Source: Escherichia coli
Lineage (GTDB): Bacteria > Pseudomonadota > Gammaproteobacteria > Enterobacterales > Enterobacteriaceae
Length of the DNA stretch: 64,000 bases
NCBI RefSeq assembly: GCF_003334405.1
Contig: NZ_QOWM01000005.1
Direction: 5' to 3' (one strand)
Position numbers: made by a program. Positions 49,301 to 55,300 of the stretch are shown here, piece by piece; positions within the stretch are counted from its first letter, which is position 1; each line of letters starts with the position of its first letter.

Positions 49301-52300
49301 CGACGCAGCGGTGCTTAACGCCGCCTGTTATATGCAGGTGGTTGGCGGTCTGCCAACGGGCACTAAAGATCTATATGAAGCGCGAGAACAAGTGAAACAA
49401 GGGATTCGCCAGTTGCTGCCACATTCGAAAGATGTCGGCGTGCCAATTGCGCTGGAGCCACTGCACCCGATGACAGCTGCCGATCGCTCTTGCCTGTGCA
49501 CGTTACGCCAGGCGCTGGACTGGTGTGATGAACTCGATCCCGATGGTGAGTTTGGCCTCGGCGTGGCGGTGGATGTTTATCACGTCTGGTGGGATCCGGA
49601 TCTCGCCAGTCAGATCCTGCGTGCCGGAAAACGCATCCTCGCGTTTCATGTTTCCGACTGGTTAGTGCCGACCACTGATCTGGTCAATGACCGTGGTATG
49701 CCGGGAGATGGCGTCATCAATATTCCGTCAATTCGTCGGCTGGTTGAAAACGCCGGATTTAATGGCGCTATTGAACTGGAAATATTCTCGCCGTACTGGT
49801 GGCAAAAAGATATTAACAGCACGCTGGATATTAGCGTCGATCGCATCGCGCATTATTGTTAAGGAATGATCATGAGTGACCAACCCGTTCTGTTCAGCAG
49901 AGCGGCGGCTTCCTGCCGCCTGACATTGAACCGTGAAGATAAATGTCATGCTATTAACGAAGAGATGATCGAATCTCTCGACCATTATTTAAATGAAATT
50001 GAAAACGACACCACATTACGATTAGTCGAATTAACGGCAACCGGCGATAAATTCTTTTGTGCGGGCGGCGATATTAAATCGTGGTCGGCCTATTCGCCAT
50101 TAGATATGGGCAGAAAATGGATTAAACGCGGTAATGACGTTTTTAATCGCCTGCGAAACTTACCCCAATTAACCGTTGCGAATCTCAACGGTCATACCAT
50201 CGGCGGTGGTATTGAACTGGCCTTGTGCTGCGATATTCGTATTGCCCGCCCCGGCGCGAAATTCTCTAACCCGGAAGTGATGCTCGGCATGGTGCCTGGC
50301 TGGATGGGCATTGAACGTGTGCTTAATCAGGTTGGTCCGGTGGTCGGTCGCCAGATGCTGATGCTGGGTAAACGCCTGACGGCGCAGGAAGCCCAGGCGG
50401 CGAATTTAATTGATGAAGTGGTAGAAAAAGAACAGGTGGAAAGCTGGATGGCGAACCAGTTAGCGCAGCTGGAAAAATGCGGCCCGGTGGCACTGGCGCA
50501 TATTAAGCAACTGATTCTGGCACTGGAAAATAAACATGCCGATTACCCGCACCAGCTACTGGCCGGATTAATGTCTGCCACTCAGGATTGCCAGCAGGCG
50601 ACGCGCGCCTTTGCCGAAAAAAGTAGCGTGAGCTTCCATAATCAATAAGGAAATTGTATGCGTAAGATAACAACCGCCGAGGCACTGGCGGCGCAAATTC
50701 AGGACGGTGCGACTATTGCTATTAGCGGTAACGGCGGCGGTATGGTGGAAGCCGACCATATTCTGGCTGCTATTGAAGCGCGTTTCCTGCAAACCGGACA
50801 CCCTCGCGACCTGACGCTAATCCACTCGCTGGGTATTGGCGATCGCGACTGCAAAGGCACTAATCGTTTTGCGCACGCAGAGATGCTCAAACGCATTATT
50901 GCCGGGCACTTTACCTGGTCGCCCAAAATGCAGGCGCTGGTAAAAAATAACACGATTGAAGCCTACTGCTTTCCTGGTGGCGTGATTCAGGCACTGCTAC
51001 GGGAGATCGGCGCCGGACGTCCGGGGCTTTTTACCCACGTTGGGCTGGGATCGTTTGTTGATCCACGCAATGGCGGCGGTAAGTCGAATGAATGCACTAC
51101 CGACGAGCTGGTAGAACTGATTGAAATCGACGGTGAAACCAAACTTCGTTATCGCCCTTTCAAAGTGGATTACGCGATTTTGCGTGGCACTTATGCCGAT
51201 CCTCGAGGCAACGTCAGCCTTGAAGAAGAAGCGATTGATATGGATAGCTATTCCATGGCGCTGGCAGCACACAACAGCGGCGGCAAAGTGTTCGTACAGG
51301 TACGCGATGTGCTGGAAGCTGGCGCGATTGAACCACGCCGGGTCAAATTACCGGGCATTCTGGTTGATGGCATCGTTGAACACCGCGAACAACCACAAAC
51401 CTATCTTGGCGGTTACGACCTGACCATCAGCGGCCAACATCGCCGTCTGAGTTCTAACGACGCTATTGAACTGGTTAGTCATCCGGTACGTCGCCTGATT
51501 GCCCGTCGGGCAGCACGCGAACTGGTAGCTGGCGCTTCAACCAACTTTGGCTTTGGTATTCCCGGCGGCATTCCAGGAGTAGCGCTGCGCGAAGGCGTTC
51601 CTTACCAAAGTTTATGGCTGAGCGTCGAGCAAGGCGTACATAACGGCATGATGCTGGATGATGCGTTTTTCGGCTGCGCCCGCAACGCCGATGCCATTAT
51701 TCCATCACTCGATCAATTTGAGTTCTACAGTGGCGGAGGGATCGATATCACCTTCCTCGGCATGGGAGAGATGGATCAGTACGGTAACGTCAACGTCTCC
51801 CATCTCAATGGCAATCTGATTGGCCCCGGCGGATTTCTCGAAATTGCGCAAAATGCCCGTAAAGTGGTGTTCTGCGGCACGTTCGACGCTAAAGGCAGCA
51901 AGATCGATATAACACCAGATGGCTTGCATATCGCCCAGTCAGGTCAAATCCCTAAACTGGTTACCAAGGTGGAAAAAATCACTTTTAGCGCCGCCTACGC
52001 ACAGCAAAGTGGTCAGGAAGTGTTGTATATCACTGAACGCGCAGTATTCCAGTTAACGGCAGAAGGCGTTGAATTAATTGAAATCGCGCCGGGTGTGGAG
52101 ATTGAGCGCGACATTCTGCCGTATATGGCTTTCCGTCCAATTATCAAGCACCCACGCCTGATGGAAAGTAGCCTGTTTACGCCGATGGAGGATGCATGAG
52201 TCAGCTTGATGACACCATCCTTGATGCGCTGACGCACGTTACTTTCCCAAAGGGTTTTGCACAGGCAGAGCCCGCATGGGTTGTCACGGTAGACGGTGTT

Positions 52301-55300
52301 GATTACCCACTCTGGCAAACAGATGCCCTGGTAGTCGGCAGTGGTGCAGCCGGGCTGCGTGCAGCTGTGGAACTTAAACGCCGCCAGCAAAATGTGCTGA
52401 TCGCCACCGCCGGGTTATATATGGGGACGTCGGCATGTTCTGGTTCCGATAAACAGACACTGTTTACCGCCGCTACCGCGGGCAACGGCGACAACTTCAC
52501 CAAACTGGCAGAGGCACTGGCGAGCGGTGGGGCGATGGATCACGACACCGCTTATGTCGAAGCGGTAGGTTCTCTGCACACTCTTGGCGGGTTGCAATAT
52601 CTTGGTCTGGAATTACCGGAAGATCGCTATGGCGCGATTCTTCGTTATCAAACCGACCATGACGAAGCCGGGCGTGCAACCTCGTGTGGGCCGCGTACCT
52701 CAAGGTTAATGGTGAAAGTGCTGTTGGAAGAAGTACAGCGCCTCGCCATTCCAGTGTTGACCAGTGCAACAGTGATTAAACTGCTGCATCAGCGTGACGA
52801 AAACGGCGAAGACCGTGTTGCGGGGGCAATCCTCGCGACCGGTCATCGCGCCCATAACCCTTGGGGGCTGGCAATTGTGACTGCGCCCAATGTGGTACTG
52901 GCAACAGGAGGGCCTGGCGAGCTTTATCGCGACAGTGTGTACCCACACAAATGTTTTGGCTCGCTGGGGCTGGCGCTGGAGGAAGGCCTGACGCTAACCA
53001 ATCTGACCGAAAGCCAGTTTGGTATAGGCACGCCGCGTAGCACGTTTCCGTGGAATTTATCCGGCACCTATGTACAGGTGATCCCGTATATCTATTCCGT
53101 GGATGCTGAGGGTAACGAGTATAACTTCCTCGCGGATTACTATCGCACCACCCAGGAGCTGGCTTCAAACATTTTCCGTAAAGGCTATCAGTGGCCGTTC
53201 CACGCCACTCGGGTGATGGATTTTGGCTCCAGCTTGTTAGATATGGCAGTAGCGCAAGAGCAGCAATCAGGGCGTCAGGTATTTATGGATTTCAATCGCA
53301 ATCCTGAAGCGGTGCCGGGTGACCTGCCGTTCTCATTAGATCGACTGGACGACGACGTTCGCGCGTATCTGGAAAATAACGACGCTCTGGCACCATCGCC
53401 CATCGAACGGCTGCAACGAATGAATCCGCTGTCTATCTCGCTGTATAAGATGCACGGTTACGATCTCACCACACAGCCTTTGCAGTTTGCCATGAATAAT
53501 CAGCATATGAATGGCGGCATTGAAGTGGATATCTGGGGACAAACCTCCCTGCCCGGCTGTTTCGCCGTGGGGGAAGTTGCTGGCACACACGGCGTCACTC
53601 GCCCTGGTGGTGCAGCATTGAATGCCGGGCAGGTTTTTGCTGTTCGTCTGGCACGTTTTATTGGTTGCACGCAAAAGCGGAATATTGATGGAGATATAGC
53701 ACAGCTGGTAGCTCCTACACTGGCTTCTATAAGAGAGATCATTACTCAGGCGCACGATAACGGGACCGGGATGCCGTTGTCGGTTGTGAGAGAAAAAATT
53801 CAGGCACGAATGTCTGACCATGCGGGATTTATTTGCCATGCCGATAAAGTCCGACGCGCCACTCGCGATGCCCTGCTATTGAGCGAATTTGTCCAACGGC
53901 ATGGATTGGCTATCAAACATGTGGGTGAAGTTGCCGAGCTGTTTATGTGGCGGCATATGGCACTGACTTCTGCCGCCGTATTAACGCAATTAACGCATTA
54001 TATTGACGCAGGTGGTGGTAGTCGGGGAGCACGTATTATTCTCGACAGGGATGGAAATTCTATTCCGCAAACACGAAATGGTTTTTGTGATGCCTGGCGC
54101 TTTCGTTCAGAGCGTACTGAGGATAAAAAAGATAAACTACTTATTCATTATTGCAACGGTATCTTTCACGTCAGAGAAACACCTGTTCGTGAGTTTCCTA
54201 TTATCCGAGGTATTTGGTTTGAAAAAAACTGGCCTGGTTTTCTTAATGGGACAATTTACCAGCCACAGGATGAATGATATTGCAAAGGTTAATCACTATG
54301 CGAAATATAATTAGATCTATTAATGCTCTGCTTGCAGCATTGAACATTACCATTTTGGCGATCATCGTGGCATGTGTGACGTGGCAGGTGGCTGCACGAT
54401 TTATATTTACTAGTCCCAGTATTTTTACAGATGAACTCAGCCGTTTGCTCTTTATTTGTCTTGGACTTTTTGGTGGGGCATACACCGCAGGGCAAAACCG
54501 GCATCTGGCGATTGACCTGCTACCTATGATGCTGAAAGGAAAAGCCCGACGTCATTTATTTTTGTGTATTCAGATTATCGTTATTATCTTCGCAACCATC
54601 ATTATGGTATATGGTGGTGGGCTATTAACGATGGATACATTCGATTCAGGTCAGACCTCGCCCGCTTTAGGCTGGCAAATGGGATATATCTATATGAGCA
54701 TCCCGATTAGTGGTGTACTTATTATTATATACACCATAGATATGGTTTTAACCGAACTTAAACAACCACTCTAAAGATAACAAACAACAACCAACCATAG
54801 TAGGAATGGAGAAATTATGGATTACTGGTTACCGATTATTGTGTTATTTGGTGCCTTCTTTTTTATGTTGGCATTAGGTGTACCTATTGTTTATGCCATT
54901 GGTTTATCGACACTGGCATCAATTTCCACACAACTCGATTTCAACTCAGCATTGAGTGTGGTTTCCCAAAAGTTAGCCTCCGGGTTAGATAGTTTTACGT
55001 TGTTGGCAATCCCATTTTTTATCTTGTCTGGCAACATTATGAACCATGGAGGAATAGCGCGACGATTAATCAACTTTGCCCGTATTCTCGGCGGTCGTCT
55101 GCCAGGCTCACTTGCCCACTGTAATATTCTCGCCAATATGCTGTTCGGGGCAATTTCTGGTTCAGCCGTGGCTTCGGCGGCTGCGATGGGCGGCGTCATG
55201 CATCCGCAACAGGTTAAAGAGGGTTACGACCCGGCATTCAGTACTGCGGTTAACGTTGCCTCTGCCCCGACGGGTTTGCTTATTCCACCAAGTAATACGT

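What the first reader, a model, noticed from the sequence alone, without database searches (positions are those of the whole stretch)
52196..54277. Unusually long (693 aa) fumarate-reductase-like FAD flavoprotein translationally coupled to a CoA-transferase
The N-terminus has a classical FAD dinucleotide-binding motif (VVGSGAAGLRAAVE), placing it in the fumarate reductase / succinate dehydrogenase flavoprotein or enoate-reductase-like superfamily, but it is longer than typical members, with about 200 extra C-terminal residues. No partner iron-sulfur, cytochrome or ETF subunit is encoded nearby. Adjacent to a CoA-transferase and a crotonase, it could oxidise or reduce a CoA-thioester or free enoate in place of a canonical acyl-CoA dehydrogenase. 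That would be an atypical arrangement.
Basis: partly seen in the sequence, partly recalled or inferred. Interest (0 to 1): 0.7.

Follow-up and report, generated by a model that had tools for sequence, protein, structure and literature searches.

The report
Uncharacterised flavoprotein in E. coli acid-catabolism operon
The gene is real and encodes a member of a large, never-studied branch of the succinate-dehydrogenase/aspartate-oxidase flavoprotein superfamily; it sits in a nine-gene operon for breaking down an unidentified organic acid, which most E. coli carry but the laboratory strain K-12 has lost.

Summary
The ORF at 52196-54277 (+) is real: 693 aa, a GSGAAG FAD motif, and an ATGA overlap with the upstream CoA-transferase. 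The window is E. coli chromosome.

The gene lies in an accessory operon between ytfB and rplI: TetR | SDR, TIM-barrel isomerase/epimerase, crotonase, YdiF-type CoA-transferase, flavoprotein, TRAP transporter. The flavoprotein gene is in 3126 of 5426 complete E. coli genomes. K-12 lacks the operon.

- The covalent-FAD His, the substrate His and the catalytic Arg of FrdA are missing.
- Only one His/Arg carboxylate clamp remains (H437, R469).
- All family-model scores are far below their cut-offs.

The "200 extra C-terminal residues" are mostly the ordinary C-terminal helical domain, diverged beyond Pfam's reach. A length of 640-700 aa is normal for this clade (422 clusters at E<=1e-30), and every relative is unnamed.

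Neighbours in other genomes are mostly sugar or sugar-acid genes. The CoA-transferase plus crotonase pair recurs in several distant lineages but is absent from many. Canonical acyl-CoA dehydrogenases sometimes sit beside the flavoprotein.

The substrate remains unknown.

The parts
47359..48006 (-). TetR/AcrR-family regulator, divergently transcribed and overlapping the end of ytfB. The longest ORF runs to 48030.
   Evidence: ORF list. RefSeq annotation of an identical strain. Homologues carry TetR_N + TetR_C_29 in Klebsiella, Salmonella and Rhodocyclaceae. The K-12 ytfA pseudogene equals its last 133 aa.
48129..48150 (.). Perfect 8-bp inverted repeat ATCAACCA-N6-TGGTTGAT in the regulator/operon intergenic region. 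Candidate TetR operator (inferred).
   Evidence: Found exactly only in the E. coli loci among those fetched.
48219..49010 (+). Short-chain dehydrogenase/reductase (FabG-like, NCBIfam PRK12745).
   Evidence: NCBIfam 417 bits against a cut-off of 250. PDB 4da9 and 4one, E about 1e-55, functions unknown. It is the most constant neighbour of the flavoprotein family (34 of 80 loci).
49020..49862 (+). Xylose-isomerase-like TIM barrel (AP_endonuc_2), 'sugar phosphate isomerase/epimerase'.
   Evidence: PDB 3qc0 and 3ju2 (E=1e-84) and 7vpf. Only weak NCBIfam matches, all to keto-sugar-acid isomerases or epimerases (IolO, hydroxypyruvate isomerase, OtnI). PF01261 in homologues.
49872..50648 (+). Crotonase-family enoyl-CoA hydratase/dehydratase. 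The longest ORF starts at 49866.
   Evidence: NCBIfam. Best PDB match is 3-hydroxypropionyl-CoA dehydratase 5zai, E=3.6e-40. Both catalytic Glu motifs are present (GGGIELAL, NPEV) (reading of the motifs rests on established crotonase knowledge).
50658..52199 (+). Fused family I CoA-transferase of the YdiF/Pct/FadX type.
   Evidence: PDB 2ahu (E. coli YdiF), E=1.2e-113. NCBIfam FadX 382 bits, below its cut-off of 750.
52187..52192 (+). GGAGGA ribosome-binding site inside the end of the CoA-transferase gene, 3 nt before the flavoprotein ATG.
   Evidence: Read directly from the sequence.
52196..54277 (+). The finding: a 693-aa cytoplasmic FAD flavoprotein from an uncharacterised clade of the SdhA/FrdA/NadB superfamily.
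54298..54774 (+). TRAP transporter small permease (DctQ). GC 0.41.
54817..56118 (+). TRAP transporter large permease (DctM). GC 0.445.
   Evidence: NCBIfam TIGR00786, 458 bits..
56171..57142 (+). TRAP solute-binding protein (DctP). Its closest solved relatives include binders of glucuronate and galacturonate.
   Evidence: PDB 4ovr, 4x8r, 4n8y, E=1e-68 to 1e-71. 4N8Y binds galacturonate and 4X8R binds glucuronate (PMC11668362).
57206..57232 (.). GC-rich hairpin with T/A runs on both sides, between dctP and the convergent rplI. Likely a bidirectional terminator that closes the operon.

Best explanation
The ORF encodes a soluble cytoplasmic flavoprotein with non-covalently bound FAD. It is the signature redox enzyme of a TetR-controlled catabolic operon for an imported hydroxy-carboxylic acid, most likely a sugar-acid-like compound with a ring or polyol.

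Proposed mechanism:
- It has the three-domain SdhA/FrdA/NadB architecture (shown).
- It holds a substrate carboxylate with the one conserved clamp, His437 and Arg469, and moves a hydride between FAD N5 and the carbon beta to that carboxylate (inferred).
- The result would be a C-C desaturation or the oxidation of a beta-CH-OH group. In anaerobes the reaction may run in the reverse direction.
- The fumarate/aspartate-specific His, Thr/Glu/Arg relay and catalytic Arg are replaced by residues invariant in this clade: G276, N287, Q294, S345/S346/D349, D85-K86-Q87 and K329/Y331/W333 (shown). So the substrate is not succinate, fumarate or aspartate.

Proposed partners:
- It works in series with the NAD-dependent dehydrogenase (SDR here, Gfo/Idh/MocA elsewhere) and the TIM-barrel keto-sugar isomerase/epimerase (inferred from gene neighbourhood).
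- The YdiF-type CoA-transferase and the crotonase form an accessory branch that activates and (de)hydrates a precursor or product as a thioester (inferred).
- The flavoprotein itself probably acts on the free acid (inferred).
- With no Fe-S, cytochrome or ETF partner, electrons would pass directly to quinone or O2, as in NadB (inferred, untested). In distant anaerobic relatives an adjacent or fused OYE-like flavoprotein could link it to NADH.
For: Fold and family:
- The AF2 model has pLDDT 91.4.
- Pfam finds FAD_binding_2 only.

Active site:
- FrdA H44 aligns with a gap, H232 with G276, and R287 with S345.
- H355 and R390 are kept as H437 and R469.
- The roles of these residues in fumarate reductases are taken from bioRxiv 10.1101/2022.01.20.477176.
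- 63 columns are invariant across 47 relatives of 32-54% identity, whether or not their operons hold CoA enzymes.

Clade size: 422 representative clusters at E<=1e-30, mostly 640-700 aa. All are unnamed.

Gene context:
- The operon is syntenic in E. coli, Klebsiella, Salmonella and Rhodocyclaceae.
- SDR + TIM + flavoprotein occur without CoA enzymes in Brenneria, Pseudescherichia, Phytobacter, Mangrovibacter, Succinatimonas-like contigs and PVC bacteria.
- All transporters are carboxylate types: a uronate-clade TRAP SBP, a DgoT-like MFS and a PcaK-like MFS.
- Elsewhere the neighbours are LacI, sugar ABC transporters, GMC and levoglucosan-dehydrogenase-like oxidoreductases, a KdgK-like kinase, and Eda or FBA aldolases.
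- An OYE-like neighbour is present in 17 of 37 distant loci, and P0150 is a natural OYE-flavoprotein fusion.
Against: - No substrate has been identified and no experiment exists.
- The clamp could bind something other than a carboxylate.
- CoA-transferase plus crotonase recur with the family in at least six lineages. In enterics the two genes are translationally coupled. This may mean the flavoprotein's true substrate is a thioester.
- In genomes that seem to lack CoA enzymes nearby, such enzymes could be encoded elsewhere.
- The sugar-type neighbours differ between clades, so the clade may not share one substrate.
- I could not inspect model coordinates. The placement of the invariant residues around the flavin is inferred from alignment only.
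Confidence: 0.45

Rival explanations
1. The flavoprotein acts on a CoA thioester, or on the enoate immediately before or after CoA transfer, as the desaturase or reductase of a beta-oxidation-like or Cai-like cycle. CoA-transferase activates the acid, the crotonase (de)hydrates, the SDR oxidises the 3-hydroxyacyl-CoA, and the flavoprotein takes the place of an acyl-CoA dehydrogenase.
For: - The operon holds every beta-oxidation-type activity except a dehydrogenase: CoA-transferase, a crotonase with both catalytic Glu, and a FabG-like SDR.
- The ATGA overlap with the CoA-transferase is conserved in enterics.
- The trio CoAT + ECH + flavoprotein recurs in Rhizobium, Rubellimicrobium, Rhodocyclaceae (with an added MaoC), Clostridia and Desulfobacterales.
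- Related SDR-TIM-CoAT clusters that lack this flavoprotein carry a canonical acyl-CoA dehydrogenase instead (L100, L102).
Against: - Close homologues with identical invariant residues sit in complete operons without any CoA enzyme.
- The carboxylate clamp is retained.
- An acyl-CoA dehydrogenase and the flavoprotein co-occur side by side in L034 and L071, so one does not simply replace the other.
- To my knowledge, every characterised FAD_binding_2 enoate reductase acts on free acids. Acrylamide, which has no carboxylate, was not reduced by ARD.
Confidence: 0.25
2. It is a reductase: a cytoplasmic enoate or enone reductase that uses an alpha,beta-unsaturated acid as an anaerobic electron sink, like the soluble NADH:fumarate, acrylate, cinnamate and urocanate reductases.
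For: - Distant relatives (37-41% identity) are adjacent to an OYE-like flavoprotein, and one (P0150) is fused to it.
- OYE-like domains are the NADH-oxidising modules of the K. pneumoniae fumarate reductase and the V. harveyi acrylate reductase.
- Many members come from strict anaerobes.
Against: - The E. coli operon has no OYE, FMN_bind or cytochrome module.
- The Arg that donates the proton in those reductases is absent.
- The P0150 fusion shows no match to an FMN_bind-type model between the OYE and FAD parts. This is a negative result from NCBIfam only.
Confidence: 0.17
3. It is a diverged paralogue with a classical function: fumarate reductase, succinate dehydrogenase flavoprotein, or L-aspartate oxidase.
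For: These are the best sequence and fold matches.
Against: - Scores are far below every curated cut-off: NadB 100.7 against 452.75, SdhA/FrdA 80.7 against 567.3, TfrA 126.5 against 718.
- The covalent-FAD His, the substrate His and the catalytic Arg are missing.
- There is no Fe-S partner in the operon.
- The same genome carries the real frdABCD about 50 kb away.
Confidence: 0.01
4. The flavin has a non-redox or structural role, for example a flavin-assisted hydratase, isomerase or elimination enzyme. The loss of the canonical acid/base residues would reflect that change.
For: The proton-relay residues are lost while the FAD-binding motifs are kept. Three of 47 members give weak MCRA (oleate-hydratase family) hits at E<=0.1.
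Against: The MCRA hits are at noise level. The clade's constant partners are dehydrogenases, and the OYE fusion is consistent with electron transfer, though it does not show it.
Confidence: 0.05

Closest known systems
L-aspartate oxidase NadB (PDB 2e5v, 1knr, 5kxj)
   Different: About 21% identity. NCBIfam TIGR00551 scores 100.7 bits against a cut-off of 452.75. The QFH His is Gly. By transfer from the FrdA alignment, the catalytic Arg of the PRD motif is Ser. The protein is about 150 residues longer and sits in a catabolic operon rather than NAD synthesis.
Complex II flavoproteins SdhA/FrdA (E. coli FrdA; PDB 6lum, 7d6x, 5xmj)
   Same: Same three-part architecture: FAD domain, capping domain and C-terminal helical domain. 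526 columns align with FrdA.
   Different: No covalent-FAD His, no H232, no R287, no T244/E245/R248 relay, and no FrdB/SdhB-type partner. Scores are far below the cut-offs.
Soluble enoate reductases with a FAD_binding_2 domain: Shewanella Fcc3, urocanate reductase UrdA, K. pneumoniae NADH:fumarate reductase, V. harveyi acrylate reductase ARD
   Different: Those enzymes keep the catalytic Arg (Fcc3 R402) and carry cytochrome or FMN_bind/OYE domains. The E. coli protein has neither. In the alignment its C-terminal helical domain corresponds to that of FrdA.
3-ketosteroid and cyclohexanone dehydrogenases (KstD, Delta4-(5alpha)-KSTD, CDH; PDB 4c3x, 4at2, 7p18, 8am3)
   Same: Same superfamily. They desaturate next to a ketone that a preceding dehydrogenase has made, which would fit the constant SDR/GFO partner here (chemistry from established knowledge).
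Carnitine (cai) system of E. coli: CaiB CoA-transferase, CaiD crotonase, CaiA flavoprotein
   Same: The same logic of CoA-transferase + crotonase + flavoprotein acting on a hydroxy acid. This comparison is from memory and is a lead only.
   Different: The families differ: CaiB is a family III transferase, and CaiA is an acyl-CoA-dehydrogenase-fold protein that needs FixABCX ETF. Here the transferase is family I, the flavoprotein is SdhA-like, and there is no ETF.

Membership tests
Pfam FAD_binding_2 (PF00890) superfamily | Significant match to the FAD-binding/capping domain model | tested here: met
   E=8.4e-28 over residues 43-475, model positions 1-414 of 414. 46 of 47 relatives match.
SdhA/FrdA (complex II flavoprotein) | His for the covalent 8-alpha-N3-histidyl FAD link (FrdA H44) | tested here: not met
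   hhalign places FrdA H44 opposite a gap. The local sequence GTSACSGSDKQT has no His.
SdhA/FrdA (complex II flavoprotein) | Substrate/catalytic residues H232, R287, H355, R390 (FrdA numbering) | tested here: not met
   H232 aligns with G276 and R287 with S345, both invariant in the clade. H355 and R390 are kept as H437 and R469.
SdhA/FrdA (complex II flavoprotein) | Adjacent Fe-S subunit and membrane anchor genes | tested here: not met
   None in the operon or window. The genuine frdABCD lies elsewhere in the genome.
SdhA/FrdA (complex II flavoprotein) | Curated family model score | tested here: not met
   TIGR01812 scores 80.7 bits against a cut-off of 567.3. TIGR01176 scores 37.5 against 932.7.
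L-aspartate oxidase NadB | Curated family model score and the catalytic His/Arg set | tested here: not met
   TIGR00551 scores 100.7 bits against 452.75. NadB H244 aligns with G276. The Arg of the PRD motif is absent by transfer from the FrdA alignment.
Soluble NADH- or cytochrome-linked enoate reductases (Fcc3, UrdA, FRD, ARD) | Motif I Arg/His/Arg, with the first Arg as proton donor; plus an attached electron-input domain (cytochrome, FMN_bind, OYE) | tested here: not met
   Two of the three Motif I residues are kept and the proton-donor Arg is lost. The E. coli protein has no extra domain. An OYE neighbour or fusion occurs only in distant relatives.
3-ketosteroid Delta1-dehydrogenase type | Catalytic Tyr/Gly constellation and a hydrophobic steroid pocket | not tested
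Acyl-CoA dehydrogenase family | Acyl-CoA_dh_N/M/1 fold | tested here: not met
   No such Pfam match. Genuine ACAD genes in L100, L102, L034 and L071 are separate proteins.
Flavoprotein (binds FAD) | Bound flavin | not testable with these tools
   Only the motifs are seen: GSGAAG at 48-53 and the invariant G459-E460 near the C-terminal end of the FAD domain. Needs purification.
Family I CoA-transferase, YdiF/Pct type (neighbour gene) | Fused alpha-beta architecture with close similarity to a solved member | tested here: met
   PDB 2ahu, E=1.2e-113 over residues 6-508. The candidate catalytic Glu motif SVEQG is visible in the sequence, but I assigned the motif from memory.
Uronate-binding TRAP solute-binding proteins (neighbour gene) | Ligand specificity for hexuronates | tested here: inconclusive
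   Its closest solved relatives include binders of galacturonate and glucuronate. Ligand-contact residues were not compared.

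The most novel reading that the evidence does not exclude
This clade is a new functional class within the SdhA/NadB superfamily. It has a rebuilt active site: Ser/Asp/Lys residues replace the Arg/His relay. Together with a YdiF-type CoA-transferase and a crotonase, it defines an undescribed, partly CoA-dependent route for catabolising a sugar-type or hydroaromatic carboxylic acid. The route is present in most E. coli, Klebsiella oxytoca-group strains and many Salmonella. 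It was never studied because K-12 deleted it.
Probability: 0.35. Interest if true: 0.7.

Novelty: new variant of a known kind. Interest (0 to 1): 0.5.

Why it matters
- **Prevalence.** About 58% of complete E. coli genomes carry this operon, as do Klebsiella, Salmonella and many environmental and gut bacteria. Its substrate and chemistry are unknown, and K-12 retains only a stub of the regulator (ytfA).
- **Nutrient niche.** Identifying the substrate would add a nutrient niche to the metabolic map of commensal and pathogenic E. coli.
- **New enzyme family.** It would assign a function to several hundred sequence clusters now labelled only 'FAD-binding protein'.
- **Mechanism.** The enzyme shows how the succinate-dehydrogenase fold can be rebuilt without its catalytic Arg and His.
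- **Annotation.** 'Succinate dehydrogenase flavoprotein subunit' and 'L-aspartate oxidase', which some databases give to members of this clade, are wrong for this protein and probably for the clade.

Tried and rejected
- **Defence system:** no PADLOC match for the regulator, the TIM barrel or the flavoprotein.
- **Literature:** no paper was found for the protein accession, the operon's annotation strings, PDB 7VPF (one irrelevant hit), DUF993, levoglucosan-dehydrogenase-type clusters, or S. meliloti SMc04128-04133 (only incidental listings).
- **GltD-type Fe-S partner:** my neighbour clustering first suggested a glutamate-synthase-small-subunit-like partner. This was an artefact. In enterics it is the housekeeping gltD on the other strand. 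In Planctomycetes it is the C-terminal half of a fused OYE-GltD protein. The recurring neighbour is the OYE-like part.
- **Simple replacement of acyl-CoA dehydrogenase:** two related SDR-TIM-CoAT clusters carry an acyl-CoA dehydrogenase and no flavoprotein, which suggested replacement. The idea is weakened because both enzymes lie side by side in L034 and L071.
- **4-O-methyl-glucuronate demethylation:** I considered desaturation to an enol ether as a specific mechanism. No literature and no glycosidase context support it. It remains speculation only.
- **Quinate/shikimate-type substrate:** this fits the PcaK-like transporter in Brenneria. It does not explain the KdgK/Eda neighbours in Planctomycetes, and the TIM barrel gave no match to a dehydroshikimate-dehydratase model.
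- **Lentisphaeria upstream genes:** they are housekeeping genes (tig, clpPX) and give no substrate clue.
- **Model coordinates:** they were not available to scripts, so I could not map the invariant residues in 3D.

Full report
**1. The observation**

The window is E. coli chromosome. A 10.1-kb query around the finding matches many complete genomes at 100% identity.

The ORF at 52196-54277 (+) is uninterrupted and encodes 693 aa, with ALVVGSGAAGLRAAVE at residues 43-58. RefSeq annotates it as WP_000080339.1, 'FAD-dependent oxidoreductase'. Its ATG overlaps the stop codon of the upstream CoA-transferase (ATGA at 52196-52199). A GGAGGA lies at 52187-52192. The same 4-base overlap is present in Klebsiella oxytoca and Salmonella enterica. 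The gene and its coupling to the CoA-transferase are therefore real.

**2. The operon**

The gene is the sixth of nine between ytfB and rplI:
- a divergent TetR regulator (47359-48006, minus strand);
- an SDR (48219-49010);
- a xylose-isomerase-like TIM barrel (49020-49862);
- a crotonase (49872-50648);
- a fused family I CoA-transferase (50658-52199);
- the flavoprotein;
- TRAP DctQ, DctM and DctP (54298-57142).

A hairpin at 57206-57232 closes the operon against the convergent rplI. A perfect 8-bp inverted repeat at 48129-48150 is a candidate operator.

The CoA-transferase is close to E. coli YdiF (PDB 2ahu, E=1e-113). The crotonase has both catalytic glutamates, and its best solved relative is a 3-hydroxypropionyl-CoA dehydratase. 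The TIM barrel matches only uncharacterised structures strongly (3qc0, 3ju2, 7vpf). Its weak matches are to keto-sugar-acid isomerases and epimerases. The closest solved relatives of the TRAP binding protein include proteins crystallised with glucuronate or galacturonate (PMC11668362).

**3. Distribution in E. coli**

The flavoprotein gene is present in 3126 of 5426 complete genomes. Only 1448 of them carry the version with the TRAP transporter.

At least one other strain has the same five enzymes followed by an MFS transporter (L096). The many genomes whose match to the flavoprotein gene stops near base 1841 suggest that this version is common. The two versions diverge inside the flavoprotein gene, near residue 613. 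The TRAP genes have a lower GC content (0.41-0.445) than the enzyme genes (0.50-0.55). Klebsiella and Salmonella have the MFS version at the same chromosomal site, with a D-galactonate-transporter-family MFS.

K-12 MG1655 has yjfZ and the pseudogene ytfA at this site. ytfA is identical to the last 133 residues of the TetR regulator. K-12 has therefore lost the operon, which probably explains why it has not been studied.

**4. What the protein is**

Pfam finds only FAD_binding_2, at residues 43-475. NCBIfam matches to TfrA, NadB and SdhA/FrdA are all several-fold below their cut-offs.

Profile-profile alignment with E. coli FrdA (taken) covers query residues 39-656 and FrdA residues 3-568. Pfam cannot detect it in this clade. 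By my arithmetic, the 91 residues in excess of FrdA are about 36 at the N-terminus, about 52 in internal insertions and about 3 at the C-terminus.

**5. Active site**

The residue roles in fumarate reductases come from bioRxiv 10.1101/2022.01.20.477176. In the alignment:
- the covalent-FAD His of FrdA (H44) faces a gap;
- H232 is G276;
- the T244/E245/R248 relay is not conserved;
- the catalytic Arg R287 is S345;
- H355 and R390 are kept as H437 and R469.

G276, S345, S346, D349, H437 and R469 are invariant across the 47 relatives. So are GSDKQT (83-88), Y151/T153/D154, W286/N287/S289/G290, Q294, K329-G330-Y331/W333-P334, R405 and R610.

The protein therefore fails the membership tests for SdhA/FrdA, NadB and the soluble enoate reductases, while keeping one carboxylate clamp. 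It has no recognisable signal peptide by eye and no extra redox domain. No Fe-S, cytochrome-partner or ETF gene is in the operon or the window.

**6. The clade**

An exhaustive search finds 422 representative clusters at E<=1e-30. Most are 640-700 aa long and match over their full length. AFDB50 neighbours include proteins from Succinatimonas, Enterocloster, Victivallis, Halanaerobium, Treponema and Coriobacterium. All carry generic names. A scan of one genome per species found at least 596 encoding loci.

**7. Gene neighbourhoods**

I analysed 80 species-representative loci plus extra loci.

Among the 43 closer relatives (at least 50% identity):
- 13 have an SDR homologous to the E. coli one;
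- 12 have the TIM barrel;
- 25 have a Gfo/Idh/MocA dehydrogenase;
- 20 have GMC oxidoreductases;
- 11 have a KdgK-like kinase;
- 9 have an aldehyde dehydrogenase.

Four operon types stand out:
- **SDR + TIM + flavoprotein only.** Brenneria adds a PcaK-like MFS transporter. Succinatimonas-like gut contigs add a TRAP system.
- **SDR + Gfo/Idh/MocA + TIM + flavoprotein.** The Pseudescherichia, Phytobacter and Mangrovibacter group adds an MFS transporter. Several PVC bacteria and a betaproteobacterium have the same four enzymes. In a Lentisphaeria MAG the four genes stand alone among housekeeping genes.
- **Rhizobium and Rhodobacterales.** A long operon: LacI, Gfo/Idh/MocA, CoA-transferase, crotonase, aldehyde dehydrogenase, a sugar ABC transporter, two GMC oxidoreductases, a levoglucosan-dehydrogenase-like enzyme, the flavoprotein, a KdgK-like kinase and an FBA aldolase.
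- **Rhodocyclaceae.** The exact E. coli-type operon plus a MaoC dehydratase.

Among the 37 distant relatives (below 50% identity), 21 have the SDR, 17 have an OYE-like flavoprotein and 11 have a KDPG aldolase. P0150 is a natural OYE-flavoprotein fusion.

**8.

The CoA-transferase and crotonase are linked to this family in several unrelated lineages, so the association is functional and not accidental.

Three results argue against the flavoprotein being an acyl-CoA dehydrogenase substitute:
- Equally close homologues with the same invariant residues work in operons that hold no CoA enzyme.
- The carboxylate clamp is kept.
- In L034 and L071 a canonical acyl-CoA dehydrogenase sits next to the flavoprotein.

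One result argues for it. Two related SDR-TIM-CoAT clusters have an acyl-CoA dehydrogenase plus DUF993 and no flavoprotein.

On balance I favour a reaction on the free acid, with the thioester branch acting before or after it.

**9. Mechanism proposed**

Shown:
- the fold;
- the FAD motifs;
- loss of the fumarate/aspartate residues;
- retention of the His/Arg clamp;
- the constant pairing with an NAD-dependent dehydrogenase;
- the carboxylate-type transporters;
- the sugar-type neighbours.

Inferred:
- The substrate is a hydroxy-carboxylic, sugar-acid-like compound.
- The flavin takes a hydride from (or gives one to) the carbon beta to the clamped carboxylate.
- In E. coli the electrons leave directly to quinone or O2, as in NadB.
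- Anaerobic relatives couple to NADH through the OYE-like partner, by analogy with the K. pneumoniae and V. harveyi enzymes.

The identity of the substrate is not resolved.

**10. Novelty and verdict**

The gene is already in databases under a generic name, and the superfamily is well known. Neither the clade nor the operon appears in the searchable literature. No relative carries a specific name.

It is best described as a new variant of a known kind: an SdhA/NadB-fold flavoprotein with a rebuilt active site, in an uncharacterised catabolic operon that is common in E. coli. Interest is moderate (0.5). There is a real and testable gap in E. coli metabolism, but nothing here contradicts established principles.

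Noticed in passing
window 54040-57142 (3' end of the flavoprotein gene plus the TRAP genes); compare L096, L093, L094: E. coli carries two versions of the operon, one with a TRAP transporter and one with an MFS transporter. The two diverge inside the flavoprotein gene near residue 613: about 99% identity before that point and about 50% after it. The TRAP genes have lower GC (0.41-0.445) than the enzyme genes (0.50-0.55). This suggests a transporter cassette was swapped by recombination.
   Followed up: partly
window 47359-48006; K-12 locus L097 3695-4096: The K-12 pseudogene ytfA is the C-terminal 133 aa of this operon's TetR regulator, at 100% identity. K-12 has yjfZ where the operon lies.
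   Followed up: yes
window 48129-48150: A perfect inverted repeat ATCAACCA-N6-TGGTTGAT lies between the divergent TetR gene and the SDR gene. It is a candidate operator. Among the fetched loci it is found exactly only in the E. coli ones.
   Followed up: partly
proteins P0002 (1078 aa), P0034 (973 aa), P0086 (1043 aa): Database entries from E. coli fuse the CoA-transferase and flavoprotein reading frames (Pfam PF01144 + PF00890). They are probably frameshifts or sequencing errors at the ATGA overlap rather than true fusions.
   Followed up: no
protein P0150 (1084 aa): A natural fusion of an OYE-like FMN domain (about residues 34-440) with a flavoprotein of this clade (446-1041). No match to an FMN_bind-type model was seen between the two parts, unlike the known NADH:fumarate and acrylate reductases.
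   Followed up: partly
hits H1-H4 and H20: Some strains have insertions in the operon. In H1-H4 the match is split into two pieces and spans about 776 bp more than the query. In strain DLI.6n (H20) an IS5-family transposase is annotated within the match to the flavoprotein gene.
   Followed up: no
window 1-2000: A low-GC stretch (0.34). In an identical strain it corresponds to a 'DNA-binding protein' pseudogene with an internal stop, next to argF and tabA.
   Followed up: no
loci L100 and L102: A related cluster type: CoA-transferase, acyl-CoA dehydrogenase, SDR, DUF993 and TIM barrel (plus Gfo/Idh/MocA), without the flavoprotein. Its SDR, TIM and CoAT are 49-56% identical to the E. coli ones. 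DUF993 does not appear in the searchable literature.
   Followed up: partly
window 57164-57727 (+): A 188-aa ORF on the plus strand overlaps rplI (57254-57703, minus strand) and has no family match. It is almost certainly spurious.
   Followed up: yes
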